DNA from: a virus
Taxonomy: Duplodnaviria; Heunggongvirae; Uroviricota; Caudoviricetes
Virus record (IMG/VR): IMGVR_UViG_3300050821_008494
Strand: one strand, 5' to 3'
Length of the DNA stretch: 64,000 nucleotides
Shown here: in pieces, positions 37,021 through 57,832 of the stretch
Numbering within the stretch: the first letter of the stretch is position 1
Layout: each line of letters opens with the position of its first letter
The notes under the pieces: model-generated
What the model was told of the DNA's origin: nothing
Database searches by the model: none
The model's input: the letters and a program-made list of their open reading frames with translations, nothing else
Translations under genes and position numbers: made by a program

Positions 37021-38196
37021 ATGTCAACCGTCACTCCAGTTGAGTTGCACAGAGATTCGGGTCCTCTCGAAGATATGAGAGCACCTCTTGAGATTATCAA
37101 GTGGAAGACCAAAAACGGATTTCCTCCCAAGAACGCACCATGCTATGACGCTAGGGCGTTTCCTCTTGAGAAGGCCATGGGAACTCACAAGATTCAAGGA
37201 GACCGTTTCCAAGGTAAGTCCGCTCTCGGAGAGACAATCTGCTTCATGCTCTGGAACACCGGAGCTACAATCTATGACATCTACGCTGCAAACGACCAAG
37301 AGAACGCGGCATGGCTAGAGAGCCCTTGTGCTGACTACGTTACTCTGCTAGTCGGCTCCAATTGTAGCCTCACGTTCGACCACAAGCAATACAAGTTCAT
37401 GAAGGCGATAGACCTCGACCCTAGCAAGCAGGGTATGCGCAACATCTACGTCGCGTGTAAACGCTTCTTCCAGACAGAAGACGACTACTACAAGGCGATG
37501 TGGAACCTCTCTGACAAATTCAAGACCCGCACGACCTATGATTGGGTTGACGTCATATTCCTGCGAGAAGCCCAAGAGGTCATCACAGGAGTGATGCGCG
37601 CAGGAGTCGCTCGAAGCGAGAAGGACGCAGCAACTGCTTTCATAAGATTCCACAACACTCTCTTCCACTTCGGCTACGCCGTTGTCCTAGACTCCCAGAG
37701 AGACGTTGAAGTCTCTAAGTCCGTCAGAGAGTTGGCAGATTGGAACTACTTCAAGAATATGGGAGGCCTCGAAATCCCTCACAAGTATTGGCACACGTTC
37801 CGAAAGGCCGACCCAGACAGGATGTATCGAGAGCTAGAGAAATGGCAGTTCATCCTCTACGCTAAAGGCAAAGTTGGTTTGGGAGTCAATCTTCAACCGG
37901 ATTGGCACATCAACCGTGGAAGAGACCTCCTTCTGAAGCTAGGCATCCATGAGCACTTCGAAGGCTCTCCTAACACTCCAGTGCCTACGTTGAGCGGTCA
38001 GGGAGGCCCCGGTAGGCCAAAGGAGTTCGGAGTCCGCCATGAAATCGAGATAAGAATTCTAGGTGGCAAATCCTACACCACAATAGAGAACGAGCTTAAC
38101 ACTTCAGACAAGACAATCACTAAAGTCAAGAAGGACATGATAGCGCGGGGAATCCTTAACCCTGACGGCTCCCTCAAGGTTACTGCTGTGCCATGA
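37021..38196 (+). CDS. hypothetical 391-aa protein with C-terminal HTH
   Basis: C-terminal ILGGKSYTTIENELNTSDKTITKVKKDM helix-turn-helix-like segment. Confidence 0.5.
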   Translation: MSTVTPVELHRDSGPLEDMRAPLEIIKWKTKNGFPPKNAPCYDARAFPLEKAMGTHKIQGDRFQGKSALGETICFMLWNTGATIYDIYAANDQENAAWLESPCADYVTLLVGSNCSLTFDHKQYKFMKAIDLDPSKQGMRNIYVACKRFFQTEDDYYKAMWNLSDKFKTRTTYDWVDVIFLREAQEVITGVMRAGVARSEKDAATAFIRFHNTLFHFGYAVVLDSQRDVEVSKSVRELADWNYFKNMGGLEIPHKYWHTFRKADPDRMYRELEKWQFILYAKGKVGLGVNLQPDWHINRGRDLLLKLGIHEHFEGSPNTPVPTLSGQGGPGRPKEFGVRHEIEIRILGGKSYTTIENELNTSDKTITKVKKDMIARGILNPDGSLKVTAVP

Positions 38197-38627
38197 GAAC
38201 TCACAGAAGGAGAGAAGAGCAGTCAAAGGCAGAAGCGAAGATAGCAGCGGCAGCCGCAATAGCCTCAGTTCACTTTGGAGGAGACGTCTCGGCTGTCCCT
38301 TCAATAGTAGAGAAGGTCAAGGAGATGAAAGGAGACCTAATCATGTGGCGCATCGTCGCTACTTGTCAGGTCACAGGCTACCGCGAATACATGGTGAAGC
38401 TGTTCTGGGACGACGAGGCTTTGGGGCGTAGAGTGCTAGGGGACTACTACGCAAAACACGCTCATCCGGTCTCTCTGGAATTCACGAAAGTCCCTATGGA
38501 CACACCTATGGTCGAAGACCCTCCTCTGTGTGTAGACTGCAACAAAATTCACGAGGTCTCTTCGGGGAATGTCTGTCAGCCTTGTGTGCCTAGACTGCCG
38601 AGCCCAAGTCTTCGTCAACCTTCTTGA
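38193..38627 (+). CDS. hypothetical protein with C-terminal Cys cluster
   Basis: ATGA overlap. Confidence 0.45.
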   Translation: MRTHRRREEQSKAEAKIAAAAAIASVHFGGDVSAVPSIVEKVKEMKGDLIMWRIVATCQVTGYREYMVKLFWDDEALGRRVLGDYYAKHAHPVSLEFTKVPMDTPMVEDPPLCVDCNKIHEVSSGNVCQPCVPRLPSPSLRQPS

Positions 38628-38856
38628 GCTGAAGGACTGTCTCAAACAGCTTTGACTCTGCGATGTCCCACTCTACAACAGAGCCGTGAGCAATCTCCAT
38701 CTTTCGAGCGAAGGATTGAGGTATGACAGCGAACACTGTGTTGCTATTCTTGTTGACTCTCTGAACACGGACTTGGTTACCTCCGAGCTTCCCTCTGTTC
38801 TTCGGAATCGAAGGACTGCTCTTCGCCACGATGAACAGAGGCGTATTACCTAACAT
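38590..38856 (-). CDS. AbrB/SpoVT-like (swapped-hairpin) transcription regulator
   Basis: VQRVNKNSNTVFAVIPQSFARKMEIAHGSVVEWDI resembles the AbrB/MazE/SpoVT N-domain. Confidence 0.4.
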   Translation of the reverse strand: MLGNTPLFIVAKSSPSIPKNRGKLGGNQVRVQRVNKNSNTVFAVIPQSFARKMEIAHGSVVEWDIAESKLFETVLQLKKVDEDLGSAV

Positions 38857-38921: not shown

Positions 38922-39260
38922 ATGTTGAGTCACCAAAGCCCGAAGCTCAAGAGGGCACTGGCTCGGTATCGCCACGCACTAGGACCCGTTGAGGGAGTCC
39001 TAACAATCGTCATCGTAGGAGCGCTGCTTGCAGTGTCTCCGTTCGTCATCGGTTCTCTCCAGAACGGATTGAACACGTCCGGTCTGCCTTCGGCAGCCCA
39101 GACTTCCATAGGGAACATCTTCACCCAAATCTACAACGCATTGGGCATCGTGCCCCTTGTGCTGGTCATCCTCGCGCTAGTCATCATCCTGAGCGCCATC
39201 TTCTTGCTAGTCCCAAGAAGGGGTGGCGGAATGGTTGGTGGCGCTGGCGAAGCCGTCTAG
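38922..39260 (+). CDS. 2-TM membrane protein, paralog A1 of a triplicated family
   Basis: LTIVIVGALLAVSPFVIGSLQNGLNTSGLPSAAQTSIGNIF...LVLVILALVIILSAIFLLVPRR. Confidence 0.5.
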   Translation: MLSHQSPKLKRALARYRHALGPVEGVLTIVIVGALLAVSPFVIGSLQNGLNTSGLPSAAQTSIGNIFTQIYNALGIVPLVLVILALVIILSAIFLLVPRRGGGMVGGAGEAV

Positions 39261-39341
39261 TCACCTCTGACCGCTGGAGCCCACGGAGGTAACACTCCGT
39301 GACTCCTTCCCTATCAAAAAACTAGAGAGAAAAAGAGAAAA

Positions 39342-39512
39342 ATGGCAAAGCGCCACGCGAAGCCGAATCCGACGCCGAACTTCAACGTAGTTCTGGCGGC
39401 AGCCGAGTCACTAGCACATGAGGCTCGTAAGGGTCAGCGTGGAGGTTACACCGACCCCGGTTACTTCGCCGAAAAGCTCGGAACGATTGAACGTGAGGTC
39501 TGGGATTCCTGA
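39342..39512 (+). CDS. small hypothetical protein
   Basis: hand-found 56-aa ORF. Confidence 0.3.
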   Translation: MAKRHAKPNPTPNFNVVLAAAESLAHEARKGQRGGYTDPGYFAEKLGTIEREVWDS

Positions 39513-39652
39513 TGGGAAAGAAAAGCCGACAGGATGTCAGGTCCATGGACTCTCACTATGAGTCGAGCGTCCACGACTTCGACATTTCTTCTGCTGACAA
39601 GATTGAAGGACTGACGAAGGGCAAAGGACTCGATACAGAGGGCGCAGTCTGA
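39512..39652 (+). CDS. small hypothetical protein
   Basis: TGATG-type overlaps on both sides. Confidence 0.3.
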   Translation: MGKKSRQDVRSMDSHYESSVHDFDISSADKIEGLTKGKGLDTEGAV

Positions 39653-39981
39653 TGCCTAGAGGCAGCAGGAATTCTCATCTCTACCAGCATGGAGGTAGAA
39701 GGGCTCACGAACCTGAGTTCGAGCGTAGATACGGAGCAGAGCATGGCAAAGAAGTCTATGGAGCAGTTGTAGGTCAAGTCCGAAGAGCCCGCATGGTGAA
39801 AGGCCTCTGTCGAGCAGGAAATTGCGGTCTTCGCTCAAGTCACAAGCATGGAGAGAACGATTGCTGCGGTGCACCTCTTCACTGTGCTCAGATTCTCGGC
39901 ACGGAGCAGCAAAGCAACAATCCGGCTTTCGGCCCTTCGACAATGCATGAAGTTCTTGATGGAGAAGGTCTCTTTGCGTGA
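39652..39981 (+). CDS. His/Cys-rich small protein, family member 1 (C-terminal FGPSTMHEVL)
   Basis: CRAGNCG...HKHGENDCCGAPLHCAQILGTEQ...PAFGPSTMHEVLDG. Confidence 0.45.
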   Translation: MPRGSRNSHLYQHGGRRAHEPEFERRYGAEHGKEVYGAVVGQVRRARMVKGLCRAGNCGLRSSHKHGENDCCGAPLHCAQILGTEQQSNNPAFGPSTMHEVLDGEGLFA

Positions 39982-40307
39982 CTCGGATGTCCTTTCCAGA
40001 CCCTACCGAGGACGCTTCGATAAGAAGCATAAGCCCGGTAGACGCGACGTTGACAATCGTGATAGTCGGAGCCCTGCTAGCAGTAGCTCCGTTTGTCATG
40101 GGGCTTCTTCAGAATGGAATCAAGACGGGAGGCCTACCTTCTACGGCTCAAACTTCCATATCGGGAGTCTTCACTCAAATCTTCAACACATTCAACATTC
40201 TTCCTCTCTACGTGGTAATCATTGCACTGGTCGGAATCCTTTCAACAATGATGCTCTTGTTCCCTCGAAGGAACAAGATAGAGTTTGGGGACGACACGGT
40301 AGTCTAG
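39978..40307 (+). CDS. 2-TM membrane protein, paralog A2
   Basis: GTGA overlap; LTIVIVGALLAVAPFVMGLLQNGIKTGGLPSTAQTSISGVF... Confidence 0.5.
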   Translation: MTRMSFPDPTEDASIRSISPVDATLTIVIVGALLAVAPFVMGLLQNGIKTGGLPSTAQTSISGVFTQIFNTFNILPLYVVIIALVGILSTMMLLFPRRNKIEFGDDTVV

Positions 40308-40319
40308 GAGTAGCTTGAC

Positions 40320-40547
40320 ATGGCCGCAGTCCTCGGAGCCGGAATCGGACTTGGTGCTACTCTCGGTGCTGCTGGAACAGTAACCTGTGCCGCAGGCGGA
40401 TGCGGAAGACCTACCAAGCATCACCACGGAGCTAACCCATGTTGCGGCTCCGAGCTTCATTGTGCCAAAATCCTCGGCGTGGAGCAAAGTAGCTCAAGAC
40501 CTGCATTCGGTCCTACTATGGACGAAGTCCTAACGGGAGTTCCTTGA
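40320..40547 (+). CDS. His/Cys-rich small protein, family member 2 (Gly/Ala-rich N-terminal hydrophobic segment)
   Basis: CAAGGCG...HHHGANPCCGSELHCAKILGVEQ...PAFGPTMDEVLTG. Confidence 0.45.
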   Translation: MAAVLGAGIGLGATLGAAGTVTCAAGGCGRPTKHHHGANPCCGSELHCAKILGVEQSSSRPAFGPTMDEVLTGVP

Positions 40548-40548
40548 C

Positions 40549-40782
40549 TTGGCAAAAGAAGGGGACATCTGTCCTAACTGTCACATAGGAGTCCTCGGTT
40601 GGGCAAAGAACTCTTACGAGGCTTCTATGTATGAGAAGCTGGCCTGTAACAATTGCGGGCACGTAGCAAATGAAAGACGGAAGACTTCCGGGCTTGCTGT
40701 AGATGTTACTCCGAGGATAAGCACAAGAATCACAGGTTCCGGAGTCCCTCAATATGACAACTACTTCGAGAGTGGAATCTGA
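40549..40782 (+). CDS. zinc-ribbon protein (CPNCH...CNNCGH)
   Basis: TTG start. Confidence 0.35.
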   Translation: MAKEGDICPNCHIGVLGWAKNSYEASMYEKLACNNCGHVANERRKTSGLAVDVTPRISTRITGSGVPQYDNYFESGI

Positions 40783-40967
40783 TGCCTAGAGACAAGAGAC
40801 GGGTTACGGAGAGCAACGTTGCGGAGAACCTGAAGGACATTCACACCCTTCACGGAATCCAGAACCCACACGACACCGTCGTCGGAGAAGTCACTCACAA
40901 CGTCGTAGACGGCTACATGGGTGACGTTCAGAAGCACGCAAAGGAAGCGAGAGAAAGAAAGCTGTAG
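40782..40967 (+). CDS. hypothetical His-rich protein
   Basis: TGATG overlap. Confidence 0.35.
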   Translation: MPRDKRRVTESNVAENLKDIHTLHGIQNPHDTVVGEVTHNVVDGYMGDVQKHAKEARERKL

Positions 40968-40973
40968 AGAGTC

Positions 40974-41462
40974 ATGGCAACCAGCTACAACGTCCAAAGT
41001 CTGGCGCTTCTAGCTGGTCCTCTGACTTTCGCATTCGCCTCCATAATGATAGGAGTCGATGATGGCATACCGGCCATTCACGACATGGCTCTGATAACCG
41101 GAGCCTTATTCTTCGTCTTCTCTCACTTCGCCCATTCCATTACCTCCTTCGGCATCGTAGGAGTTCCTCGCGTAGGGCTCGGTCCGATAGAAGGCACACT
41201 CACAATCGTCGTAGTCGGAACTCTGAGCGCGGTCTCTCCATTCGTCGTAGGGAGCCTTCAGAACGGTCTCAATACCAGCGGCCTTCCTTCTGCCGCGAAG
41301 GTCTCAATCGGTAACATCTTCCAGCAAATCTACAACGCTCTTGGAATAGTCCCTCTCGTCCTCGTAATCCTCGCCCTAGTCGTAATCTTGTCTGCGGTCT
41401 TCCTTCTTGTTCCTCGACGCTCCGGCATGATGCTCGACACAGGAGGTTCGCAAGCGGTATGA
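40974..41462 (+). CDS. membrane protein, paralog A3 (extra N-terminal TMs)
   Basis: LTIVVVGTLSAVSPFVVGSLQNGLNTSGLPSAAKVSIGNIF...LVLVILALVVILSAVFLLVPRR. Confidence 0.5.
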   Translation: MATSYNVQSLALLAGPLTFAFASIMIGVDDGIPAIHDMALITGALFFVFSHFAHSITSFGIVGVPRVGLGPIEGTLTIVVVGTLSAVSPFVVGSLQNGLNTSGLPSAAKVSIGNIFQQIYNALGIVPLVLVILALVVILSAVFLLVPRRSGMMLDTGGSQAV

Positions 41463-41485
41463 GAAAGTCCGAGAAGAGAACCAAG

Positions 41486-41635
41486 ATGGAACAGGAGTTT
41501 GTCACACTCTATCGCCTCAATTGGGGCAACACAATAGGTCTGGAGACCTCTCGCGTAACAGGAATGTCAGACCGCGAGCTTGAGATGTCACTCGACAGTC
41601 AACGGAAGTTTCCGGGGAAGTTCAGAGGACCATGA
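41486..41635 (+). CDS. small hypothetical protein
   Basis: hand-found; stop overlaps next ATG. Confidence 0.25.
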   Translation: MEQEFVTLYRLNWGNTIGLETSRVTGMSDRELEMSLDSQRKFPGKFRGP

Positions 41636-41880
41636 GCGCAGCAGGTGCGGCCTTCGGGGTCATTGGTGCGGGTCTTCCTCTCATAGCAGGATTCATAGTC
41701 CTCGATGCAATAGCAGGGACAGTCAAGTGCACTCATCCCGGCTGCGGTGAAGAGATGCATCATTCAAAGCAAGCCTCTCATTCGAAGGCTCATCAGTCGA
41801 AAGGAGAGCACACCACTCACAAGACGATACAGCGGCACGAATTCGGTGGAGACATGGACTCGTGGCTCGGCCTTGGTTAA
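41632..41880 (+). CDS. His/Cys-rich small protein, family member 3 (Gly/Ala-rich N-terminal segment)
   Basis: TVKCTHPGCGEEMHHSKQASHSKAH...FGGDMDSWLGLG. Confidence 0.4.
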   Translation: MSAAGAAFGVIGAGLPLIAGFIVLDAIAGTVKCTHPGCGEEMHHSKQASHSKAHQSKGEHTTHKTIQRHEFGGDMDSWLGLG

Positions 41881-47899: not shown

Positions 47900-48817
47900 T
47901 TGGCCGCTCCGTCACCGGAGCCCTTGAGCGGACTCCGCAAGTATCTCTCCGGTCGTCGAGCTAACGGCATCATCTCAGCCATAGCAGCAGGCGCACTCAT
48001 TCAAGCGATGCTCATCTTCGCAGTCGAACTCTTCCAAGTCAACGTCCCTCTCATCCAATTCTTCATAGGCCAAACTTCCGGCTCCGGAGGTCAGAGCCTC
48101 CAATACCAACCTCTCGGTTCCTCCCCATCAGGGCAAGCAGTCTCCGGATTCCTCTACATCATACCTGCCATAGCAGCCACCTTCGGCATGGTCTACCTAG
48201 CACGGCGCAATCCTCGTGTCTGGTTCAAGCTCGTGATAGGAATTGCCTTCGCGCTCGGCTCCTTCTTCATCGGCTTCGTCTCCTATTGGTGGTGGCTCGG
48301 CTTCTGGCCAACGGCAATCCTCATAGTCGGTCTGGCCACGGCAGTCTTGGTATCCTTTACGTTCAAGTCACGCACAAGAGCAGCTCTCGCAGGAGCACCT
48401 TTCAAAATCTGGTTCGCCGTAGGTTTTGCCTTTCTCTCTTTCCTCACACTCCCATTCTTCATGTGCCTAGCCATAATCTGCGGCTTTGCAGTCTGGGACA
48501 TAATCGCCGTCTTCCGAGGACCTCTCAAAGAAGTCGTCAAGTCAGAAGGCAAGGCCTTCCAATTCCTCCGCACTGCCCTGATGCTTGACTTCGGTCTCGG
48601 TGGCATCGGCCTCGGAGACCTCTACCTCTACAGCCTCATGACAATGCTCGCAGCGTCCCTCGGCTTCCATCAAGTCGAGGCCTCATACATTGCAATCCTC
48701 GCCGGAGTCATGCTCAGCTACTACCTCCTCCGCACACGCGAGAAGATTGGCCTGCCGGGGCTTCCTTTGCCGGTCCTCTTCTTCATAGTCTCCGTAGGAG
48801 CACTCACACTTGCCTAG
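47900..48817 (+). CDS. presenilin/signal-peptide-peptidase family (GxGD-type) intramembrane aspartyl protease homolog
   Basis: VWDIIAVFRGPLKEV vs PS1 VYDLVAVLCPKGPLRMLVE; GIGLGDLYLYS vs LGLGDFIFYS; LPGLPLPV vs LPALPISI (PAL motif). Confidence 0.55.
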   Translation: MAAPSPEPLSGLRKYLSGRRANGIISAIAAGALIQAMLIFAVELFQVNVPLIQFFIGQTSGSGGQSLQYQPLGSSPSGQAVSGFLYIIPAIAATFGMVYLARRNPRVWFKLVIGIAFALGSFFIGFVSYWWWLGFWPTAILIVGLATAVLVSFTFKSRTRAALAGAPFKIWFAVGFAFLSFLTLPFFMCLAIICGFAVWDIIAVFRGPLKEVVKSEGKAFQFLRTALMLDFGLGGIGLGDLYLYSLMTMLAASLGFHQVEASYIAILAGVMLSYYLLRTREKIGLPGLPLPVLFFIVSVGALTLA

Positions 48818-50547: not shown

Positions 50548-50831
50548 GTGACGACTCTTCCAAGGCAGACAAGCTCGGCCTCTTCCAGAAAGTCCTCGAT
50601 GCCTTCGCGGAAGGCAGGACAATATCACGCAAAGACCTTCACCTCCTCCAAGACCTAGCCTACAGGCTTACAGAGACAGACGATGTCCGAAGGTTCCGTC
50701 TCAAGCTCCTGTTCGTGAAGGACATCGTAATCTGGATTAGCTTCCTCGCCACAGTCATCTTCGTAGTCCAGTATGCCTTCGATTTCATAGCCGCACTTCA
50801 CGGCTTTGGAAGGATTGGGAACAGCTTTTGA
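50544..50831 (+). CDS. small protein with C-terminal TM
   Basis: TTGA overlap. Confidence 0.35.
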   Translation: MSDDSSKADKLGLFQKVLDAFAEGRTISRKDLHLLQDLAYRLTETDDVRRFRLKLLFVKDIVIWISFLATVIFVVQYAFDFIAALHGFGRIGNSF

Positions 50832-52069
50832 CAATCACCCAGACGCTCGGCAACTCGAAGCTCCTCAACATAGGAGCCTACGCAGGAACCATATTCTTCA
50901 TGCTCTGGGCTCTCTACAACGCACTCACCTACGGTTGGGACTACTACAGCGACTACATCCCATTCCTCCCGAAGGGCTTCCGCATCTTTGCGGCATGGCC
51001 ATACTCCATCCTAGTCTTCGGAATCCTCGCCCTCTACTGCATCAAGCGCTACGGCTGGCCGGGTCTCTTCTTTGCCGCAGCCATCAACGAACTCTGGGAA
51101 CTCGCCTACGACATGACACCGGCAGTCATCCAAGTCCGCTACTGCCCCGAGGTCTACTCCGTCCCCGGCCAAAACTACCTCTTCTGCGCAGTCAACGAGT
51201 CAGCAATCTTCGACCCGCACTTCTTCCTCTACATTGGCCAAGGCATAGCTCTCGTCCTCTTCGCATTCGCAATGGTCCTCCAATTCAGAGGCTACACCTT
51301 CAGCATCAAGAACCTCGGCAAGCTCTTCATCCTCCAATGGCTCTTCTCCATAGCAACGTGGCCATGGAGCATCTGGTATGAGTTCCTCGCCGAAGTCTCG
51401 GTCGTCCTTCTCTTCTTCCTTCTCGAAGTCCCGCAAGATGCCGTGAGCATCTACGGTCAAGCAACCGACAAGCTTGACGAGAAGTTCTTTGACCATCAAA
51501 CCGAGCAGGGCTTCTCCGTAGCAGCGACCGCTGTGGCAAACTCTCTCAAGACAATTCTGTCACCCACAGAGGCCCTCGATGTTGGCTGTGGCAAAGGCTT
51601 TCTCGTGCGCCAGCTTAACCTCTTGGGAGTCAAGTCCTGCGGAATGGACAAGAGCCTCTACGCCATACAACACAGAGCCTCCGGTCTCGACCAAAATGAA
51701 CTCATGTTAGGCGACATATCCGCACGCACATCACTAATGGACGGCTACTTCGACCTAGTCACCTGCATCGGAGTCCTTCAATACCTAGACGACAAGCACT
51801 CTGCTCTCAGGGAGATGAGGCGTCTACTCCAGACCGGAGGAAAGCTCTTCATAGCGTTCCCACTTCATAGGCGTAGCCAGAAGCCCTTTGCCGAATCCGT
51901 AGAGCATCTCGGCTTCAAGTTCCTTCCCGACTCCTCCGAGGAACTCGCCAAGCTCTACCCATACATCCTCGGCAGAAAGTTCGGCCTCCTCAGCAAGTGG
52001 CCATTCAAAGTCCTGATACCCCGTTTCCAGAAAGACGACTTCGCCTTCCTCTGCTTTCAGGCGATATGA
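50828..52069 (+). CDS. membrane domain (member 3) fused to class I SAM-dependent methyltransferase
   Basis: N-terminal KRYGWPGLFFAAAINELWELAYD; C-terminal LDVGCGKGFLVRQL (motif I), DLVTCIGVLQYL, GGKLFIAFP. Confidence 0.55.
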   Translation: MTITQTLGNSKLLNIGAYAGTIFFMLWALYNALTYGWDYYSDYIPFLPKGFRIFAAWPYSILVFGILALYCIKRYGWPGLFFAAAINELWELAYDMTPAVIQVRYCPEVYSVPGQNYLFCAVNESAIFDPHFFLYIGQGIALVLFAFAMVLQFRGYTFSIKNLGKLFILQWLFSIATWPWSIWYEFLAEVSVVLLFFLLEVPQDAVSIYGQATDKLDEKFFDHQTEQGFSVAATAVANSLKTILSPTEALDVGCGKGFLVRQLNLLGVKSCGMDKSLYAIQHRASGLDQNELMLGDISARTSLMDGYFDLVTCIGVLQYLDDKHSALREMRRLLQTGGKLFIAFPLHRRSQKPFAESVEHLGFKFLPDSSEELAKLYPYILGRKFGLLSKWPFKVLIPRFQKDDFAFLCFQAI

Positions 52070-52770
52070 TGGAGCCACAATCTAGGATTCCAGAGTTCTC
52101 CGGCACCACAGTATCCATTGTCATCCCTGCTCACAACGAGCGCGACACAATACGCAACATAGTGGCAGGCTGTCTCCCATACGGCGAAGTCATCGTTGTA
52201 GATGACGGCAGCACGGATGACACTTCAGCACAAGCCACAGAAGCAGGGACTAGAGCTAACCCCAAGCTCGTAATCCTACACAAGAACTTCGGTTACTCCT
52301 ACGCCATCAAGAAAGGCTATGAAGCCTCAACAGGCGAAATCATAGCCCTCGTAGATGCAGACGGACAGCAGAACCCCGACGAACTCCACAGGCTCCTTTC
52401 CCCAATCCTCAACGACGAAGCCGACATGGTCATCGGTTCCAAAATCCTCGGCACCATGGACTACGAGCCAGCAATCGCGAACTCCCTTATGAACGAGACA
52501 TGGCAGAACCTCATCCTGTGGCGCTTCGGAGTAAACCTCACTCACCCCTTCAGCGGCATGAGGGCAATGCGCAAGTCCTGCATCGACATGAGCGCCCTCA
52601 AATCTAATCGCTTCGAGTCCATGCTGGAGCTTGACATCTCATTCATCAAGAACGGTTACAGGATTCTCGAAGTCCCTCGCGTCGCCCGAGCCCGGACCAA
52701 AGGCAAGTCTCATGTCACACTAGCAGACGGCCTTCGTGTCATGTGGAGAGGAGCACAGCTCCTCCTATGA
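52066..52770 (+). CDS. GT2-family glycosyltransferase (dolichyl-phosphate sugar synthase / GtrB-like)
   Basis: VSIVIPAHNE, VIVVDDGSTDDT, DADGQ. Confidence 0.6.
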   Translation: MMEPQSRIPEFSGTTVSIVIPAHNERDTIRNIVAGCLPYGEVIVVDDGSTDDTSAQATEAGTRANPKLVILHKNFGYSYAIKKGYEASTGEIIALVDADGQQNPDELHRLLSPILNDEADMVIGSKILGTMDYEPAIANSLMNETWQNLILWRFGVNLTHPFSGMRAMRKSCIDMSALKSNRFESMLELDISFIKNGYRILEVPRVARARTKGKSHVTLADGLRVMWRGAQLLL

Positions 52771-53264
52771 CTCTCTTCAGCTGGACCTTCCGCAGAGTCC
52801 TCGCCGTCTCAGTAGCAACCCCAGCACTAGCCATAGGCTACATAGTCACATGGCTCCTCATAGTCCATGTCCACTACCAAACAGTAGGCGTCCTCTCCTC
52901 CGTCTTCATAGGAGACATCTCAGCATTCATATTCGGCCAAGCCACACAAGACTACCAATACAGGTTCATGCTCCGCTTCAAGTCCTTCCGCGAGATAATG
53001 CCGCAGCGCAAGAGCCCCAAATCAGACACACCACAGAAGTTCATCAAGCGCAGGTTCCTCAGCTTCCTAACCCTCTTCCCTCCCATGGCATTCAACTACC
53101 TCGCCGTCTTCGTCCTCATCTCCTTCATCCACTTCCACACCGTCTGGATTCTCTCGGCAGTCCTAGTCGGCGATGGTCTGGGTTTCGCTTTCAACAGTCT
53201 CACCCTCGACTATCAGTTTAAGTTCCTCATGCACTTCGAGTCCTTCAAGGAGCTTCTAGATTGA
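52767..53264 (+). CDS. GtrA-like 4-TM protein with internal tandem duplication
   Basis: two halves each TM + DYQ(Y/F)(R/K)F(M/L)(L/M)(R/H)F(K/E)SF(R/K)E(I/L)(M/L); ATGA overlap with GT2. Confidence 0.45.
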   Translation: MTLFSWTFRRVLAVSVATPALAIGYIVTWLLIVHVHYQTVGVLSSVFIGDISAFIFGQATQDYQYRFMLRFKSFREIMPQRKSPKSDTPQKFIKRRFLSFLTLFPPMAFNYLAVFVLISFIHFHTVWILSAVLVGDGLGFAFNSLTLDYQFKFLMHFESFKELLD

Positions 53265-53406
53265 AGCCCGAACCAGCCAAGCCTATGCCGTCCAAGAAGA
53301 CAGCATCACAGCAAGAGACCATCGAAGAGCAGGACATCAACAAAGAAGCAGCAGCATGGTGCGACCCTCCCTAAGTTAAATAGCAGCCCAACAGACAAGC
53401 CCTTCC

Positions 53407-54546
53407 GTGCAGAGCGACCCTTTGCAACTGAGCCTCAACATTTGCGGCGTCTCTGGAAGTCGTCGCCACGGAAACACTCTCTACCTCGTAGAGCGAGCCC
53501 TTAGAGCTGCCAGCGTCTTCTTCGACGAGATGAATGTCTCCTCCAGAGGGCACCTCAAGATAACCTCAACCTTCTCCAAAGTGGAGACTGGCTTCGACAA
53601 ATCCTCAGATGCCGAGGTCCTTATGTCACGAGCAGACGGCCTCCTTCTGGCCTCTCCCGTTTACTTCGGTTCCATATCCCCGTCCCTCAATCAAGCACTC
53701 AAGAACATATCACGAATCGAGGGACTCTCCGAGAAGTCCGGAGCCTGCGTAACTATCGGCACTCAGCGCAATGGAGGGCAAGAGACCGCCATCGAAGACA
53801 TCTACCGCTGGTTCATGGCTCGCAGCGTGACCTTCGTCGGTAACGGTCCCGTGACATCCCAATACGGAGGCACAGTCTGGGGAGGCGCAATCGGCACGGC
53901 AGAGAACGACGAGTATGGACTTCACACGACAGAAGGCACAGGCAAGCGCCTAGCCCAAGACGTCCTCCTGCGAGCCATAGGCAAGAAGGTCACATTGGAG
54001 AACTCCACAATCCGTGTCCCTCGCTTCCTCTTCTTCTGCGACTCCGAAACACCCCAGTGGCGTCTCGACCATTCCAAAGGCCGAGTCCCTCCATACACCG
54101 CAGACTACCTATTCCTCAAGGAGGACTTGGCCAACGTCGAAGACTGCGTCGCCTGCGCAACCTGCCCTCCCGGCAATCTCAAGGAGCCGGGAGTCTACGG
54201 TTGCATCTTCAACGACGACCTCAACACCAACTACGAGCGCTTCTACTCAGCCAACACAATCATCTGTTCCGCGAACGACCAAGACGGCCTCTGCTCTCCA
54301 GACTACTGGAAAGTCCTCAACCGCATGAGAAGCGTCCGACGGAACAACTACGACCTTACGGGACGCTGCGGAGCCATGATGGGAACTTCCATGGTTCCTC
54401 TCAAGTGGCTTATCCGCAACAATCTTCCCATCGTCCCCTCAGAGCCCAACCTCATGTATCGCGAATCCCTCTACCGCATGGCAGGCCTCGAATACATGAA
54501 GTCAATCGGAATGTCCCCTTGGACGGAGCCGACAATCCATGAGTAG
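53407..54546 (+). CDS. NAD(P)H-dependent FMN reductase-like flavoprotein with Cys-rich C-terminal domain
   Basis: ADGLLLASPVYFGSISPSLNQALK (flavodoxin-like FMN reductase); C-terminal CVACATCPP plus 5 more Cys; GTG start. Confidence 0.5.
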   Translation: MQSDPLQLSLNICGVSGSRRHGNTLYLVERALRAASVFFDEMNVSSRGHLKITSTFSKVETGFDKSSDAEVLMSRADGLLLASPVYFGSISPSLNQALKNISRIEGLSEKSGACVTIGTQRNGGQETAIEDIYRWFMARSVTFVGNGPVTSQYGGTVWGGAIGTAENDEYGLHTTEGTGKRLAQDVLLRAIGKKVTLENSTIRVPRFLFFCDSETPQWRLDHSKGRVPPYTADYLFLKEDLANVEDCVACATCPPGNLKEPGVYGCIFNDDLNTNYERFYSANTIICSANDQDGLCSPDYWKVLNRMRSVRRNNYDLTGRCGAMMGTSMVPLKWLIRNNLPIVPSEPNLMYRESLYRMAGLEYMKSIGMSPWTEPTIHE

Positions 54547-54736
54547 TAGAACAAAACTGTCACAATCTCAGATAATACAGCTAGCAGACGACTTAGTCGT
54601 CGAGATTCTATCTAGCCCTGCCATGGCTCCATTCCGTGAAGCGTGGTTCTCTGGAAGATGGGACTTGCCAATGTTCGAATACTCACGAAGACAGAAGCAG
54701 CGAATCCGTTTGGCTATGAGGGGCTTCTTCACTTGA
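54539..54736 (+). CDS. small hypothetical protein
   Basis: ATGA overlap. Confidence 0.3.
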   Translation: MSSRTKLSQSQIIQLADDLVVEILSSPAMAPFREAWFSGRWDLPMFEYSRRQKQRIRLAMRGFFT

Positions 54737-55017
54737 CAGACTCAAAGCTCCTCGGGACATTCCAGCAAGGTCACACCAAGGTCTTTCCCGACCGCATAGA
54801 GATTGACGGCAACAAGCTCCTCTTCTCCGACCTCCATCACATCGAAGGAGAAGGCACCGAAGTCATCATAGTCCTTCACAACGGCCTACCAGTCTCTCTC
54901 AGCATCACAGGCGAGGAAATCGTCTCAGCTTCCAACTTCAAGATAATGGTCTGGAGGGCCTACAAGCTCTGGAAGAAAGACCCCACAGCAGGCAGTCACG
55001 GAGTCGTCGGCTATTGA
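54733..55017 (+). CDS. hypothetical protein
   Basis: TTGA overlap in frame of ORF 54643..55017. Confidence 0.35.
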   Translation: MTDSKLLGTFQQGHTKVFPDRIEIDGNKLLFSDLHHIEGEGTEVIIVLHNGLPVSLSITGEEIVSASNFKIMVWRAYKLWKKDPTAGSHGVVGY

Positions 55018-55123
55018 ACGACACACTCAAGGGATTTCTGGCTCTGGTTGGCTTCCTCCTTTTCATAGACGGGCTCGCATTAGGAATGACCTTCTTTACA
55101 GTTCACATGGTAGCTCTGATACC

Positions 55124-55999
55124 ATGAAGACCGTCCTAGTCACCGGAGCAGGAGGCCCCGCAGGAATGGCAGTCCTCCAGTCTCTCAAAGTAGCCCCAGA
55201 GAAGTTCAAGACCGTTGCCGTAGATTCAAGCCCACGCGCCGCAGGCCTTCTCAAGGCCACATACTCCAGAGTCGTCCTCAAGTGCAACGAGCCCGGTTAC
55301 ATAGACCAGCTCAGAGCACTCTGCGAGGAATACCACGTTGACGTCATCATACCTACCGTCGATGAAGAGATTCCATACCTCGTCCAATCCGGAGTCTTTA
55401 GCGATGGCATGGCACGCGCAATCCTTCCGGACGAGCGAGCAGTCAAGATGGCACAGGACAAACTCTCCTACCAATTTCTCGAAGTCGATACTCCAACAAC
55501 CGTCCCCTTCCCCGCCATAATCAAGATGCGCCGAGGTCGAGGCTCCAAGGGCATCCGCTTCCTCGACAAGGAGCCAATAGACATGATAGTCCAAGAGCGC
55601 ATCCCCGGTGACGTCTACCTCGCACAAGCCCTCTGCAAAGACGGTGAAGTCCTGCGCTGGTGCATCACAAAGCGCCTCGACCCTGCCGTCGGTCCGGCAA
55701 CCTCGGCAGTCTCAGCCTACGACCTCAACATAGCCGACCGGCTTCAGAAAGTCGTCAAGACCCTCCGCTGGAACGGAGCCATAGGAATCGAGTTCATCCT
55801 TTCCAAGACCAACGGCTCATACTACCTCATAGACATCAACGCCCGCATCTGCGGTCAGTCCCATCTCTGCACCATGGCAGGCATGAACCTCGCATACGGT
55901 CTAGTCCAGCTCTCCCTCGGCCAAGAGGTCACAATCTCCAAGGAATACAAAACAGACGTCACCTTCGTCCGCGCATGGGAGGACACCACAATTGGATGA
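55124..55999 (+). CDS. ATP-grasp family enzyme (carboxylate-amine ligase-like)
   Basis: VLVTGAGGPAG N-domain; EFILSKTNGSYYLIDINARICGQS C-domain. Confidence 0.5.
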   Translation: MKTVLVTGAGGPAGMAVLQSLKVAPEKFKTVAVDSSPRAAGLLKATYSRVVLKCNEPGYIDQLRALCEEYHVDVIIPTVDEEIPYLVQSGVFSDGMARAILPDERAVKMAQDKLSYQFLEVDTPTTVPFPAIIKMRRGRGSKGIRFLDKEPIDMIVQERIPGDVYLAQALCKDGEVLRWCITKRLDPAVGPATSAVSAYDLNIADRLQKVVKTLRWNGAIGIEFILSKTNGSYYLIDINARICGQSHLCTMAGMNLAYGLVQLSLGQEVTISKEYKTDVTFVRAWEDTTIG

Positions 56000-56219
56000 A
56001 GACATCTACTCTGTGGACTCCATACGGAAGTTCGCGAATCAAACCGAGGTCGAACCTACAGGCGAGTTCCATTCTGTCTTATGTCGCGTCGCCTATCAAC
56101 TCCAATCCAAAATAATCACTCGCGAGCAGGCAATCGAGAGGCTCAAGCCCTACGATTATCCAAACAGGCTGAACCCCGAAATCAACCAAGTCGATTTCTC
56201 CGAGGGTCCCACACGATGA
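55992..56219 (+). CDS. hypothetical protein
   Basis: ORF track. Confidence 0.35.
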   Translation: MDEDIYSVDSIRKFANQTEVEPTGEFHSVLCRVAYQLQSKIITREQAIERLKPYDYPNRLNPEINQVDFSEGPTR

Positions 56220-56752
56220 GCCCTACTCGACCGGGTGTAGCTACACGTCCGAGCGAGCAACGTCTCAAGAGTAAAATTTACCAGAGTCACGTCATTCGTA
56301 GAATCATATCCGGTTCCGAAGTCTGCAACAAGTGTGGTGCACCTTTAGTCCTCGACGAGAATTGGCAGGTCTACTACGCGAATCTCGTTTGCAAGTCGTG
56401 TAGAAGCGAAGAGGGCAAAAGGGAATATTGGAAATCCGGCAGGCTCCTAAAATCTACCAAAGCTCCGTTTCTCGCCATGAGGATGAAGGTAGAGGTTTTC
56501 TCTCATTATTGCAGAGGCAAGATTAAGTGTCTTCGATGCGGAGAAAACGATTTGAGAGTTCTTAGCCTAGACCATATCAACGGAAGCACTAAGGAGGAGA
56601 AGCTACTACGAAGGGCTACCGGCTCTAATCTCTACAAGCATCTCAGACGCAACAATTACCCTCCGGGCTTTCAGGTTCTGTGTATGAACTGCCAATATAG
56701 GAAGAGGTGGGATAAGAGAGAATTCAGGAAGATGGCGGAGAAGCGCAATTGA
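56216..56752 (+). CDS. HNH endonuclease-like protein
   Basis: CNKCG...CKSC and LSLDHINGS...N...LCMNCQ; locally AT-richer. Confidence 0.5.
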   Translation: MSPTRPGVATRPSEQRLKSKIYQSHVIRRIISGSEVCNKCGAPLVLDENWQVYYANLVCKSCRSEEGKREYWKSGRLLKSTKAPFLAMRMKVEVFSHYCRGKIKCLRCGENDLRVLSLDHINGSTKEEKLLRRATGSNLYKHLRRNNYPPGFQVLCMNCQYRKRWDKREFRKMAEKRN

Positions 56753-57357
56753 ACGTATTAGCTATCGGGGCTCATCCGGACGATTGCGAGTTTGGCGTCT
56801 TCGGAACTCTTCACCGTCATGTCAAGAAGGGTGACAAGGTCACCATCCTCGTCCTTACGAAGGGCGAGCAGGGAGGAAACTGCAACATGAGAGAAGCTGA
56901 GGCCACAAGAGCTGCCAAGCTCCTCGAATCTGAAATCATCTTCGGTGAGTTCCAAGACGGCTACCTTCGCGACAACCACAAGCTAGTCAACGAAATAGAG
57001 GAGGTCATCAATGCCGCAGAAGCCGACCTTGTCTATACCCACAGCGACAAAGACCGTCACCAAGACCATAGATACTGCTCTCTTGCATCAGTTGCCGCTG
57101 CCCGTCGAGTCAACACAGTCCTCCTCTTCGAGACCCCAAGCACAGTCCATGGTTTCATCCCTCAACTCTTCATAGACATCACAGACAGCGTCGATGTGAA
57201 GCTCAAGTCCCTCCGTCAACACGAGAGCCAGCTTCCAAAGCGCTACCTCGAAGAGGGAGCAGTCACTGGCCTCGCTACATACCGCGCATATCAGGCTGGC
57301 CTTCCCGGTCGTATGGCAGAGGCATTCGAAGTTGTCCGTGAGGTGCGTCAAATCTGA
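56749..57357 (+). CDS. PIG-L/LmbE-family N-acetylglucosaminyl deacetylase
   Basis: LAIGAHPDDCEFG, HQDHRY; TTGA overlap. Confidence 0.6.
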   Translation: MNVLAIGAHPDDCEFGVFGTLHRHVKKGDKVTILVLTKGEQGGNCNMREAEATRAAKLLESEIIFGEFQDGYLRDNHKLVNEIEEVINAAEADLVYTHSDKDRHQDHRYCSLASVAAARRVNTVLLFETPSTVHGFIPQLFIDITDSVDVKLKSLRQHESQLPKRYLEEGAVTGLATYRAYQAGLPGRMAEAFEVVREVRQI

Positions 57358-57473
57358 ACCGTGATGGCCAGTTCCTCGACCGTGCGGCAGAGGTCAGCGT
57401 CACAGAGAAAGAGATAGACCGCGTCATTGGAGAACTCACGGAGAGCTTTGGCTTCTCCGTCGTCTACTCCGCA

Positions 57474-57826: not shown

Positions 57827-57832
57827 GCCCAC

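What the first reader, a model, noticed from the sequence alone, without database searches (positions are those of the whole stretch)
38922..41462. Triplicated 2-TM membrane-protein family (A1, A2, A3) in a tight cassette array
Three paralogs lie at 38922, 39978 and 40974. They share a nearly identical core, (L)TIV(I/V)VG.L.AV.PFV.G.LQNG(L/I).T(S/G)GLPS.A..SI..(I/V)F.QI(Y/F)N, a second TM helix and a C-terminal (V/F)PRR. Their nucleotide sequences are strongly diverged by synonymous change. The duplications are therefore old and maintained under purifying selection, not a recent repeat. Each copy is interleaved with small His/Cys-rich proteins, and A3 carries extra N-terminal TM helices. Nothing in the sequence assigns a function. 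Candidates include virion membrane proteins, superinfection-exclusion or immunity proteins, or pilin-like subunits. No prepilin peptidase was found, although a GxGD-type protease lies 7 kb downstream at 47900.
Basis: seen in the sequence. Interest (0 to 1): 0.75.

Follow-up and report, generated by a model that had tools for sequence, protein, structure and literature searches.

The report
Capsid-like hairpin proteins, archaeal virus element
The three small membrane-protein genes are real, old paralogs. They most likely encode the hydrophobic two-helix coat protein of a previously undescribed, unusually large spindle-virus-like element of peat-soil archaea, here expanded to five copies; the protein type itself is already known.

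Summary
A1 (38922-39260), A2 (39978-40307) and A3 (40974-41462) are true paralogs. Their cores are 58-86% identical in protein, but third codon positions are only 36-41% identical. The operon is tightly packed, and small Cys/His proteins sit between the copies.

The close family is rare: 24 clusters among 5.8 billion proteins. Relatives sit in integrase-bearing mobile elements, one of them inserted in a Nitrososphaerales genome, and they usually carry one copy.

A full-library profile search widened the family to about 80 clusters. These share one plan: a basic leader ending in [KR][KR][G/A], helix 1, an (N/D)TSG turn that is usually an N-glycosylation site, helix 2, and a basic tail.

That profile links to the coat proteins of spindle-shaped viruses:
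- SSV19 VP1 in the PDB: E 0.025, aligned across both helices.
- hhalign against fusellovirus VP1/VP3: 75% probability, score 31.8, against 22 for reversed and at most 20 for shuffled controls.
- His1 VP21 is the only His1 ORF hit.

The Pfam VP1 models do not match, and fold searches are uninformative.

The window holds two more distant copies, at 21820 and 13732.

Best reading (confidence about 0.65): VP1-like capsid proteins of a new, large thaumarchaeal virus-like element. This is a new variant of a known kind.

The parts
38922..39260 (+). A1, 112 aa. This is the canonical copy of the two-helix family. Layout: basic leader, R-H-A-LGPVEG junction, helix 1, LNTSGLP turn with sequon N51, helix 2, PRR tail and a C-terminal EAV.
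   Evidence: The core is 96% identical to orthologs P0014, P0005 and P0008.
39652..39981 (+). B1, 109 aa. A Cys/His-rich protein (C-x4-C ... H-x-H-G-x3-CC-G-x3-H-C) ending in FGPSTMHEVL. Its stop overlaps the A2 start by 4 nt.
39978..40307 (+). A2, 109 aa, with a GTG start (an alternative ATG lies at 39987). It is the most diverged of the three tandem copies and has no N-glycosylation sequon.
40320..40547 (+). B2, 75 aa. It has a Gly/Ala-rich hydrophobic N-terminus, the same Cys/His pattern as B1 (51% identical), and ends in FGPTMDEVL.
40974..41462 (+). A3, 162 aa. The family core is 86% identical to A1 and is preceded by two extra hydrophobic helices within the leader. The sequon is at N100.
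41632..41880 (+). B3, 82 aa. A related His-rich small protein with a hydrophobic N-terminus that ends in FGGDMDSWLGLG. Its ortholog is L009:13594-13851.
39342..39652 (+). Two tiny ORFs of 56 and 46 aa between A1 and B1, packed with 1-nt overlaps. Function unknown.
40549..40967 (+). Two small ORFs between B2 and A3: 77 aa with a CxxC...CxxC zinc-ribbon pattern, and 61 aa.
41459..41635 (+). A 58-aa ORF between A3 and B3, overlapping both neighbours by 4 nt.
21820..22155 (+). A', 111 aa. A distant fourth family member with an RRILG junction, helix 1, an NTT sequon, a GLP...AAQ turn, helix 2 and an RSR tail. Orthologs occur in L010, L009 and L057.
   Evidence: hhalign 61.5% against 0.7% reversed; E 4e-6.
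13732..14043 (+). A'', 103 aa, read from an internal ATG preceded by GGAGG. A probable fifth family member with a KKRHA junction, helix 1 containing a Pro, an LQNSINTW turn and helix 2.
   Evidence: (E 0.0017).
21126..21305 (+). A B-like Cys/His-rich 59-aa protein ending in FSFGDGALNNWLGG. It lies upstream of A'.
38590..38856 (-). A divergently transcribed 88-aa protein that is weakly AbrB/MazE-like. Small minus-strand genes sit upstream of A in the relatives as well.
   Evidence: PF04014, E 0.016.
37021..38196 (+). A 391-aa protein conserved just upstream of A in related elements. It carries an invariant Walker A-like GDRFQGKS and a weak C-terminal HTH.
47900..48817 (+). A presenilin-type GxGD intramembrane protease, 305 aa, with AVWDIIAVFRGPL, GLGD and PGL motifs. 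Homologs occur in L010 and L054.
17889..20612 (+). A 907-aa protein with a signal-like N-terminus, Asp-box-like SxDxGxTW repeats and a C-terminal cluster of hydrophobic helices. Candidate virion spike or fibre.
   Evidence: read from the sequence. No Pfam or NCBIfam hit.
50828..63371 (+). A sugar-modification module: methyltransferase, GT2, FMN reductase, ATP-grasp, PIG-L, dehydratase/epimerase, DegT aminotransferase and aldo-keto reductase. L009 has a syntenic module.

Best explanation
A1, A2 and A3, with the more distant A' and A'', are paralogous major-capsid-type proteins of the kind that builds spindle-shaped archaeal viruses (SSV1 VP1/VP3, His1 VP21).

**Shown.**
- They form a strongly conserved family of about 100-aa proteins.
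- Each has a variable basic leader, a conserved [KR][KR][G/A] junction, two long hydrophobic helices, a short polar turn that usually carries an N-x-S/T sequon, and a short basic tail.
- The family is found only in archaeal mobile elements.
- It has weak but specific profile similarity to VP1 and VP21.

**Inferred.**
- Each precursor inserts into the host membrane as a hairpin, with both ends inside and the turn outside.
- The turn is N-glycosylated, plausibly using sugars made by the element's own 12-kb sugar module.
- The leader is cut off at the junction, as in SSV1 VP1.
- The mature hairpins pack side by side into the strands that wrap the DNA and bud from the cell.
- A1 is the main building block. 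A3, A2, A' and A'' are co-assembling or position-specific variants that tune shell size or curvature, in the way that loss of VP3 changes SSV1 shape.
- The B proteins that follow each copy are zinc-binding partners of unknown role, possibly assembly or packaging adaptors that dock through a shared C-terminal motif.
For: **1. Family and constraint.**
- There are 24 close clusters in 5.8 billion proteins and 17 invariant positions, including polar ones.
- The A1 core is 96% identical to orthologs in elements whose neighbouring 391-aa protein is only 57% and 33% identical. A shell protein would be expected to be the most constrained gene in this way.

**2. Wider family.** About 80 clusters at 50% identity share the same plan. 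72 of 85 carry a sequon in the turn, and most have a [KR][KR][G/A] junction.

**3. Link to known capsid proteins.**
- The A4 profile against 177,635 PDB sequences ranks SSV19 VP1 (7xdi_A) third, at E 0.025. It is the only hit aligned across both helices.
- hhalign of A4 against 23 fusellovirus VP1/VP3 representatives gives 75% probability, P 2.5e-5 and score 31.8, aligned end to end. Reversed controls score 22. One hundred block-shuffles give mean 11.6 and maximum 20.3.
- The A4 HMM picks VP21 as the only His1 ORF hit, at E 0.007 among 5262 ORFs.
- A VP1/VP3 HMM scores extended-family members at 23.5 bits (P0107) and 12.5-17 bits (nine others), against at most 10.4 bits for reversed decoys.
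- In a single-sequence panel, VP1, VP3 and VP21 score 20-22. AtpE, lambda holin, VirB2, TraA, pleolipovirus VP3 and PilA score 8-16. The accepted VP1-VP21 pair scores 24.8 under the same settings.

**4. Shared anatomy with VP1.** The precursors have leaders of variable length. The fusellovirus junction is [KR][KR][G/A] followed by E-G, against R-R-A followed by LGPVEG here. Both have a Pro in helix 1, a TSG turn, a (V/L)PL start to helix 2 and a basic tail.

**5. Context.**
- An A homolog is the first gene after the integrase in an element inserted in a Nitrososphaerales genome. Synteny with four MAGs breaks at L001:8466.
- Related elements have many tiny CxxC ORFs, a DUF5658 gene as in SSV1, large spike-like proteins and a sugar module.
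- A distant element, L016, has two tandem copies beside an integrase.

**6. Precedent.** SSV1 VP1 and VP3 are paralogs, and published putative capsid proteins of new spindle-shaped viruses rest on comparable evidence. One example is 75.4% HHpred probability to SSV19 VP1 (PMC10866085; also PMC10541130, PMC9796341).
Against: - The curated Pfam models for VP1/VP3 (PF06281) and His1 VP21 (PF25665) do not hit A1-A3, or more than two of the 85 extended-family members.
- A VP1/VP3 HMM finds nothing significant among the window's ORFs directly. A1 scores E 2.5.
- hhalign of the narrow family (A2 alignment) against VP1 is not significant. The link appears only after widening the family.
- No fusellovirus or His1 core gene was detected by phmmer.
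- No relative is present in IMG/VR or in the phage collection.
- Whether the element makes particles at all is unknown.
- The element is far larger than any known VP1-type spindle virus. The window holds 64 kb without host genes, and the contig is 114-185 kb.
- A2 and A'' lack the turn sequon.
Confidence: 0.65

Rival explanations
1. A generic membrane protein of a mobile element, with no capsid role. Examples would be a superinfection-exclusion or immunity protein, a holin-like egress protein, or an envelope or vesicle protein of a pleomorphic virus or plasmid vesicle. On this reading the resemblance to VP1 is convergence of short two-helix hydrophobic proteins.
For: - No curated capsid model matches.
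- The direct VP1 HMM search of the window is negative.
- Fold searches are non-specific.
- There is a weak holin-family match for A2 (PF23987, E 0.22).
- The elements are absent from IMG/VR.
Against: - The profile similarity to VP1/VP21 exceeds reversed, shuffled and unrelated two-helix controls, including lambda holin and pleolipovirus VP3.
- There are no PADLOC hits.
- The conservation is extreme: 96% core identity across elements whose other genes have diverged to 33-57%. That is unusual for immunity or holin genes, which evolve fast.
- The conserved leader junction and the glycosylation turn mirror VP1.
Confidence: 0.2
2. Type IV pilin-like subunits. The [KR][KR][G/A] junction would be a class III signal peptide cut by a prepilin-peptidase-type enzyme, and the mature hydrophobic helix would polymerise into a filament.
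For: - The junction motif sits directly before a hydrophobic helix of about 22 residues in most of the 85 family members. Many read RKG-Q or KKG-Q.
- The A4 profile gives weak PDB hits to the N-terminal helices of TcpA (E 0.17), PilE1 (E 0.37) and an archaellin-type flagellin (E 1.7).
- A GxGD protease is encoded in the same element.
Against: - There is no globular C-terminal domain. A second long hydrophobic helix and a basic tail take its place.
- The pilin hits are weaker than the VP1 hit and cover one helix only.
- PilA scores 14.0 against 20-22 for the capsid proteins.
- The protease is presenilin-type (A22), not A24.
- No PilB/FlaI ATPase or PilC/TadC family was found in the window ORFs scanned.
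Confidence: 0.08
3. Conjugative (VirB2/TraA/CedA1/TedC-like) hairpin pilins of an integrative conjugative element.
For: - The general plan matches: a cleaved leader plus a two-helix hairpin of about 70-100 aa carried on an integrating element.
- Thaumarchaeal integrative conjugative elements exist (PMC6563490).
Against: - No VirB2, TraA, CedA1 or TedC chain appears in the PDB profile search at E up to 10.
- VirB2 and TraA score 11.6 and 13.0 in hhalign.
- No VirB4, VirD4 or VirB6 family was found in the window or in related loci.
- The only Walker A motifs in the window's ORFs lie in the 391-aa protein and one small ORF.
- The turn is neutral and carries a glycosylation site, whereas conjugative pilins have a basic loop that faces the lumen (this last point is from memory).
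Confidence: 0.05

Closest known systems
Fuselloviridae VP1/VP3 capsid proteins (SSV1, SSV19; Pfam PF06281, PDB 7XDI)
   Same: - Two long hydrophobic helices joined by a short polar turn with an N-x-S/T site.
- A precursor with an N-terminal leader of variable length, ending in a [KR][KR][G/A] junction next to a conserved acidic residue.
- A Pro in helix 1, a (V/L)PL start to helix 2 and a basic C-terminal tail.
- Paralogs encoded in the same genome.
- The most conserved gene of the element.
- Profile similarity above controls.
   Different: - The Pfam model does not match.
- The second helix is preceded by an extra amphipathic segment (AAQTSIGNIFTQIYN), so the mature protein is about 10-15 residues longer.
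- The C-terminus carries a conserved Gly-rich stretch and an EAV end.
- There are five copies, against one or two.
- The host is a mesophilic Nitrososphaerales archaeon and the element is at least 64 kb, against Sulfolobales hosts and 15-24 kb genomes.
- No other fusellovirus core gene was detected.
His1 VP21 (Halspiviridae; Pfam PF25665)
   Same: - The same two-helix plan with a sequon-bearing turn.
- It is the only His1 ORF hit by the A4 HMM, at E 0.007.
- hhalign scores 20.6 against 11.4 for the reversed sequence.
   Different: - There is no Pfam match.
- VP21 has a very short leader.
- His1 is a 14.5-kb linear genome with a protein-primed polymerase. No such polymerase was found among the window ORFs scanned.
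[quoted passage not shown]
   Same: - The host phylum is the same (Thaumarchaeota/Nitrososphaeria).
- The capsid protein is predicted on the same kind of evidence: an 81-89 aa protein with two hydrophobic helices and a weak HHpred link to SSV19 VP1 (PMC8491892, PMC10866085).
- An NSV protein is the second BFVD Foldseek hit, but it is not significant (E 1.4).
   Different: - Those genomes are 27-38 kb with a single capsid gene.
- Their sequences could not be fetched for a direct comparison. MK570053 is not in the collection.
Archaeal and bacterial type IV pilins (class III signal peptides)
   Same: A basic residue or residues plus Gly/Ala directly before a hydrophobic helix, with weak profile hits to pilin N-terminal helices.
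   Different: No globular domain, a second hydrophobic helix, and no pilus assembly genes. The co-encoded GxGD protease is presenilin-type, not A24.

Membership tests
Fuselloviridae VP1/VP3 capsid family (Pfam PF06281) | Match to the curated family model | tested here: not met
   hmmscan of A1-A3 at E up to 1 does not list PF06281. When the 85 extended-family members were scanned, PF06281 was not among the 25 families shown, so at most 2 members match it. A locally built VP1/VP3 HMM gives A1 an E of 2.5 among the window's ORFs.
Fuselloviridae VP1/VP3 capsid family (Pfam PF06281) | Distant homology detectable by profile-profile comparison | tested here: inconclusive
   hhalign of A4 against VP1/VP3 gives 75% probability, P 2.5e-5 and score 31.8. 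Reversed controls score 22 and shuffled controls at most 20.3. SSV19 VP1 scores E 0.025 in the PDB profile search. Bridging members score up to 23.5 bits. This is above the controls but below the 95% level usually required.
Fuselloviridae VP1/VP3 capsid family (Pfam PF06281) | Small protein made of two long hydrophobic helices joined by a short turn | tested here: met
   The AlphaFold model has helices 22-49 and 57-96, kinked at P78, with mean pLDDT 70. The hydropathy scan gives the same two-segment pattern as SSV1 VP1.
Fuselloviridae VP1/VP3 capsid family (Pfam PF06281) | N-glycosylation sequon in the exposed turn | tested here: met
   A1 has NTS at N51, A3 has NTS at N100 and A' has NTT at N43. 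72 of 85 family members carry a sequon in the turn. A2 and A'' lack one. Actual glycosylation cannot be tested here.
Fuselloviridae VP1/VP3 capsid family (Pfam PF06281) | N-terminal leader removed by proteolysis at a conserved junction | not testable with these tools
   A comparable junction motif is present: R-[RKH]-[AG]-LGPVEG here, against [KR][KR][GA]-E-G in fuselloviruses. Cleavage itself needs protein chemistry. The protease that cuts SSV1 VP1 is unknown (PMC5748691).
Fuselloviridae VP1/VP3 capsid family (Pfam PF06281) | Major component of purified virions | not testable with these tools
   There is no isolate. All the sequences come from metagenomes.
Fuselloviridae (virus family) | Shared core genes (VP2, VP4 end filament, B251 ATPase, SSV-type integrase and others) | tested here: not met
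   phmmer of all SSV1 and His1 ORFs against all window ORFs finds nothing relevant at E below 1. Only a DUF5658 gene in relative L010 is shared with SSV1.
His1 VP21-type capsid protein (Pfam PF25665) | Match to the curated family model, or a reciprocal profile hit | tested here: inconclusive
   There is no Pfam hit. The A4 HMM hits VP21 as the only His1 ORF, at E 0.007. phmmer with VP21 against the window ORFs is not significant.
Type IV pilins / class III signal peptide proteins | [KR]-G/A cleavage motif followed by a hydrophobic helix, plus a globular C-terminal domain and dedicated assembly genes | tested here: not met
   The motif and helix are present. The globular domain is absent. No A24 peptidase, PilB/FlaI or PilC/TadC family was found among the ORFs scanned.
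VirB2/TraA/CedA1/TedC conjugative pilins | Sequence similarity to solved pilins and co-occurrence with VirB4-type ATPases | tested here: not met
   None appears among the PDB profile hits at E up to 10. No VirB4, VirD4 or VirB6 family was found.
Pleolipoviridae VP3 membrane protein | Similarity to HRPV-1 VP3 | tested here: not met
   hhalign gives 0.1% probability and score 8.4.
Presenilin/SPP GxGD proteases (for ORF 47900-48817 only) | YD and GxGD catalytic motifs in adjacent helices, a PAL-like motif, and a match to the family model | tested here: inconclusive
   PF01080 matches at E 1.5e-6 and 27.7 bits, below the 34.3-bit cut-off, over the GxGD-to-PAL region. AVWDIIAVFRGPL, IGLGDLYLYS and PGLP were read directly from the sequence and compared with presenilin-1 motifs from memory. 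There was no PDB or NCBIfam sequence hit.

The most novel reading that the evidence does not exclude
The element would carry a self-contained capsid-maturation module. Its presenilin-type GxGD intramembrane protease (47900-48817, also present in relatives L010 and L054) would be the enzyme that removes the leader from the VP1-like precursors, at the conserved [KR][KR][G/A]-LGPVEG junction on the cytoplasmic face of helix 1.

That would name a candidate enzyme class for the protease that matures spindle-virus capsid proteins, which for SSV1 VP1 has never been identified. It would also tie these capsid proteins to class III (pilin-type) signal processing.

A weaker form of the same idea: the five paralogs and their B partners let a VP1-type lattice scale up to a genome several times larger than any known VP1-type spindle virus.
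Probability: 0.12. Interest if true: 0.8.

Novelty: new variant of a known kind. Interest (0 to 1): 0.55.

Why it matters
Spindle-shaped viruses are an archaea-only lineage. Their shell is built from one tiny hydrophobic hairpin protein, and they are recognised in metagenomes almost entirely through that protein.

- **Detection.** Current models (Pfam PF06281 and PF25665, PHROGs) and IMG/VR miss this family, so a set of elements in peat-soil Nitrososphaerales goes unrecognised as viral. Such elements would currently be filed as 'cryptic integrated elements' (PMC6563490).
- **Scale.** If the assignment holds, this would be a very large VP1-type element, at least 64 kb and possibly more than 100 kb, with five capsid paralogs. 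That makes it possible to ask how a fluid, strand-based lattice scales with genome size and what paralogs contribute to shape.
- **Maturation.** The conserved leader junction and a co-encoded GxGD protease give a concrete, testable handle on the unsolved question of how VP1-type precursors are matured.

Tried and rejected
- **Curated libraries.** Pfam, PHROGs, NCBIfam and PADLOC scans of A1-A3, B1-B3 and their neighbours gave only noise from transmembrane-rich families.
- **Phage collection.** blastn of 38.5-46 kb and tblastn with A1 found no match. The low-complexity filter probably masks A1.
- **Narrow-family searches.** The PDB profile search with the 3-sequence alignment returned only SecY noise. 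hhalign of the narrow family against single VP1 or VP21 sequences was not significant.
- **Collection scans with the A family.** The scans of genome contigs and IMG/VR matched the peptide patterns, but the tblastn confirmation failed, probably through masking.
- **IMG/VR with the 391-aa protein.** Neither the single sequence nor its alignment found anything.
- **Third large protein search.** The search with the wide alignment was limited by the candidate cap and added little.
- **Other dead ends.**
  - The alignment of regions upstream of A orthologs showed no conserved promoter.
  - PDB searches for the presenilin-like protein and the 391-aa protein gave nothing.
  - No tRNA genes were found in the window.
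  - NSV1 (MK570053) is not in the phage collection, and its paper is not held.
- **Hypotheses set aside.** A defence or immunity system, a conjugative pilin, pleolipovirus VP3 and a holin were each considered and rejected for the reasons given under the rival explanations.

Full report
**1. The observation**

They align over a common core with 49 invariant columns.

Across the whole aligned length, amino-acid identity is 48-72% and nucleotide identity 56-60%. Within the 81-codon core:

| Pair | Amino-acid identity | Third-position identity |
|---|---|---|
| A1/A3 | 86% | 36% |
| A1/A2 | 65% | 41% |
| A2/A3 | 58% | 41% |

For A1/A3, 46 of the 70 identical residues use different codons. NG86 dS is above 1.2 or saturated. 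Only a 188-nt core is recognisable as a DNA repeat, at 70-71% identity.

The similarity is not hydrophobic low complexity. Across 24 homologs the invariant positions include P40, F41, G44, Q47, G49, T52, P78 and P98, and the motif LQNGLNTSGLP.

The eleven ORFs from A1 to B3 are packed with overlaps of 1-4 nt or gaps of at most 12 nt, apart from 81 nt after A1. They therefore look like one operon. Upstream of A1 lies a 290-nt region with TATA-like boxes, read, and a divergent AbrB/MazE-like gene (weak, E 0.016).

**2. Relatives and where they live**

The close family is rare: 24 clusters in 5.8 billion proteins, all from metagenomes and none with a Pfam domain. The window's own genome recurs as a 114-kb Logan/ENA contig and a 185-kb JGI contig.

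Other carriers have one close copy:
- L009 (60-kb contig) and L010 (40-kb contig) share the upstream block with the window, with proteins of 150, 424, 162 and 391 aa. L009 also shares the downstream sugar-modification module.
- L011, L012 and L057 are further examples.
- L001-L006 are a different element in which the A homolog is the first gene after a tyrosine integrase.

The host flank of L001 is 99% identical to a Nitrososphaerales MAG from SPRUCE peat. Synteny with four such MAGs stops at L001:8466, just before the integrase. That element is therefore an insertion in a thaumarchaeal chromosome.

A1 is the orthologous copy, with a core 96% identical to P0014, P0005 and P0008. A3 is 86% identical to A1. 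A2 is at most 68% identical to anything. The neighbouring 391-aa protein is only 57% and 33% identical between the same elements, so A is by far the most constrained gene.

**3. Widening the family**

A full-library HMMER search with the 24-sequence profile found 80 cluster representatives at E of 0.001 or better. All are 80-150 aa and share one plan:
- a variable, often basic leader;
- a junction of [KR][KR] followed by G or A;
- a hydrophobic helix of about 22 residues;
- a turn centred on (N/D)TSG(L)P, which carries an N-x-S/T sequon in 72 of 85 members;
- an amphipathic stretch;
- a second hydrophobic helix;
- a short Gly/Arg tail.

Searching all ORFs of the window and 52 loci with this profile revealed two more window members. 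A' at 21820-22155 scores E 4e-6, and hhalign gives 61.5% against 0.7% for the reversed sequence. A'' lies inside ORF 13480-14043 and scores E 0.0017; its likely start is the ATG at 13732, behind a GGAGG. A' has orthologs in L009, L010 and L057. A distant 43% GC element, L016, has two tandem copies next to an integrase and large ORFs.

**4. What the family resembles**

Curated libraries are silent. The wide profile, however, points at the capsid proteins of spindle-shaped archaeal viruses.

- *PDB profile search.* Among 177,635 PDB sequences, SSV19 VP1 (7xdi_A) ranks third at E 0.025. It is the only hit aligned colinearly over both helices and the turn. The two better hits are single-helix FXYD matches. 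Pilin N-terminal helices follow at E 0.17-0.37.
- *Profile against profile.* hhalign against 23 non-redundant fusellovirus VP1/VP3 sequences (gathered, selected) gives 75% probability, P 2.5e-5 and score 31.8, aligned end to end.
- *Controls.* Reversing either profile gives about 22. One hundred block-shuffles of the VP1 alignment give mean 11.6, s.d. 2.1 and maximum 20.3.
- *His1.* VP21 is the only His1 ORF hit by the family HMM.
- *Reverse direction.* A VP1/VP3 HMM scores extended-family members at 23.5 bits (P0107) and 12.5-17 bits (nine others), against at most 10.4 bits for the same sequences reversed. The alignments include the leader junction.
- *Specificity panel.* VP1, VP3 and VP21 score 20-22 against the family profile. 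ATP synthase c, lambda holin, VirB2, TraA, pleolipovirus VP3 and PilA score 8-16. The accepted VP1-VP21 pair scores 24.8 under identical settings.

The anatomy also matches. Fusellovirus VP1 precursors have leaders of very different length, ending in [KR][KR][G/A] followed by E-G. They have a Pro in helix 1, an NLTSG turn, a VPL start to helix 2 and a basic tail. The literature states that the leader is cut by an unknown protease, that the residues just upstream of the cut are essential, and that loss of the paralog VP3 changes particle shape (PMC5748691). Published 'putative capsid proteins' of new spindle viruses rest on evidence of similar strength (PMC10866085, PMC10541130, PMC9796341).

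**5. What speaks against it**

- The Pfam VP1/VP3 and VP21 models do not match.
- A VP1 HMM does not pick A1-A3 out of the window directly.
- The narrow family alone shows no significant similarity.
- Fold comparison cannot discriminate among helical hairpins.
- No other fusellovirus or His1 gene is detectable.
- The elements are absent from IMG/VR and the phage collection.
- The element is far larger than known VP1-type viruses. The window has no host housekeeping genes or tRNAs. The contig continues past the window with an 1838-aa ORF and a helicase.

I therefore treat 'works like a VP1-type capsid protein' as the best-supported reading, at about 0.65. I treat formal membership of the Pfam families as not established.

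**6. Rivals**

A generic membrane protein of a mobile element (immunity, holin or envelope) remains possible, at about 0.2. It fits poorly with the extreme conservation and the specific profile signal. The pilin-like and conjugative-pilin readings were tested and are weak. There is no globular domain, no pilus or type IV secretion genes, and lower scores than for the capsid proteins.

**7. The partners**

Each A copy is followed, directly or after one or two tiny ORFs, by a small Cys/His-rich B protein. The A-then-B order recurs in L009, L011 and L057, and a B-like gene also precedes A'. The ancestral unit is therefore an A-B pair, and the array arose by duplication of that unit.

B1-B3 and three other small proteins between 45.2 and 46.9 kb end in a shared motif, roughly F-G-x-x-M-D-E-V-L-G. 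It occurs in the last 22 residues of 6 of 198 + strand ORFs, against 0.2% of internal windows. A common docking partner is the obvious inference, but this is untested.

The presenilin-type protease recurs in L010 and L054. Its link to maturation of the A precursors is a conjecture, which I rate at about 0.12.

**8. Verdict**

The finding is real and the selection argument is correct. The most likely identity is a divergent, expanded set of VP1-like capsid proteins in a new, large virus-like element of peat Nitrososphaerales. It is a new variant of a known kind. It is of clear interest to archaeal virologists, but the protein type is known, and the assignment still needs protein-level or particle-level proof.

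Noticed in passing
window 39652-39981, 40320-40547, 41632-41880, 45206-45463, 45470-45709, 46069-46905; also L009:11646-11927 and L009:13594-13851: Six otherwise dissimilar small proteins end in a shared motif, about (P)F-G/D-x-x-M-[DE]-[DES]-[VIL]-L-(G). All six lie between 39.6 and 46.9 kb. The motif's background frequency is 0.2% per 22-aa window. It looks like a common docking or targeting peptide.
   Followed up: partly
window 47900-48817; L010:3038-3430 (-); L054:926-1768: A presenilin-type GxGD intramembrane protease (AVWDIIAVFRGPL, GLGD, PGL) recurs in three related elements. In L054 it sits between the 162-aa and 391-aa genes just upstream of where A normally lies.
   Followed up: partly
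window 37021-38196: The 391-aa protein conserved immediately upstream of A carries an invariant Walker A-like GDRFQGKS and a weak C-terminal HTH. It matches no known family in Pfam, NCBIfam or the PDB. It may be the element's ATPase.
   Followed up: partly
window 17889-20612: A 907-aa protein with a signal-like N-terminus, Ser/Thr-rich stretches, Asp-box-like SxDxGxTW motifs and a C-terminal cluster of hydrophobic helices. The gene order (large protein, small ORFs, a 175-aa membrane protein, then A') recalls the VP4-B78-C166-VP1 order of SSV1.
   Followed up: no
A-family C-termini, e.g. window 39249-39257: Nearly all close family members end in E-A-V at the very C-terminus, after a Gly-rich stretch. 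A conserved free C-terminal tripeptide suggests recognition by a binding domain.
   Followed up: no
L016:10001-10806: A distant 43% GC element carries two tandem 132-aa family members next to an integrase, a DNA methylase, a DUF7845 protein and ORFs of 1007 and 841 aa. Tandem duplication of this gene has therefore happened more than once.
   Followed up: partly
L001:8466: Synteny between the provirus-bearing contig and four Nitrososphaerales MAGs ends at the same base, 55 nt before the integrase gene. This marks one end of the insertion. No tRNA gene is annotated at the junction, which lies next to a transaldolase gene.
   Followed up: partly
L058:10813-20762 (contig beyond window end): The contig continues past the window with an 1838-aa ORF that has no Pfam hit and a 970-aa ResIII/DEAD helicase. 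No host housekeeping genes are seen, so the element may exceed 80 kb.
   Followed up: no
window 41459-45709: A run of about 25 tiny + strand ORFs of 35-90 aa, many with CxxC pairs, packed end to end. This is the pattern seen in SSV1 and His1 genomes.
   Followed up: no
window 8926-9609 and 31506-32519: An RNase H-like (RVT_3) protein and an SPFH/Band 7 protein are encoded in the same element.
   Followed up: no
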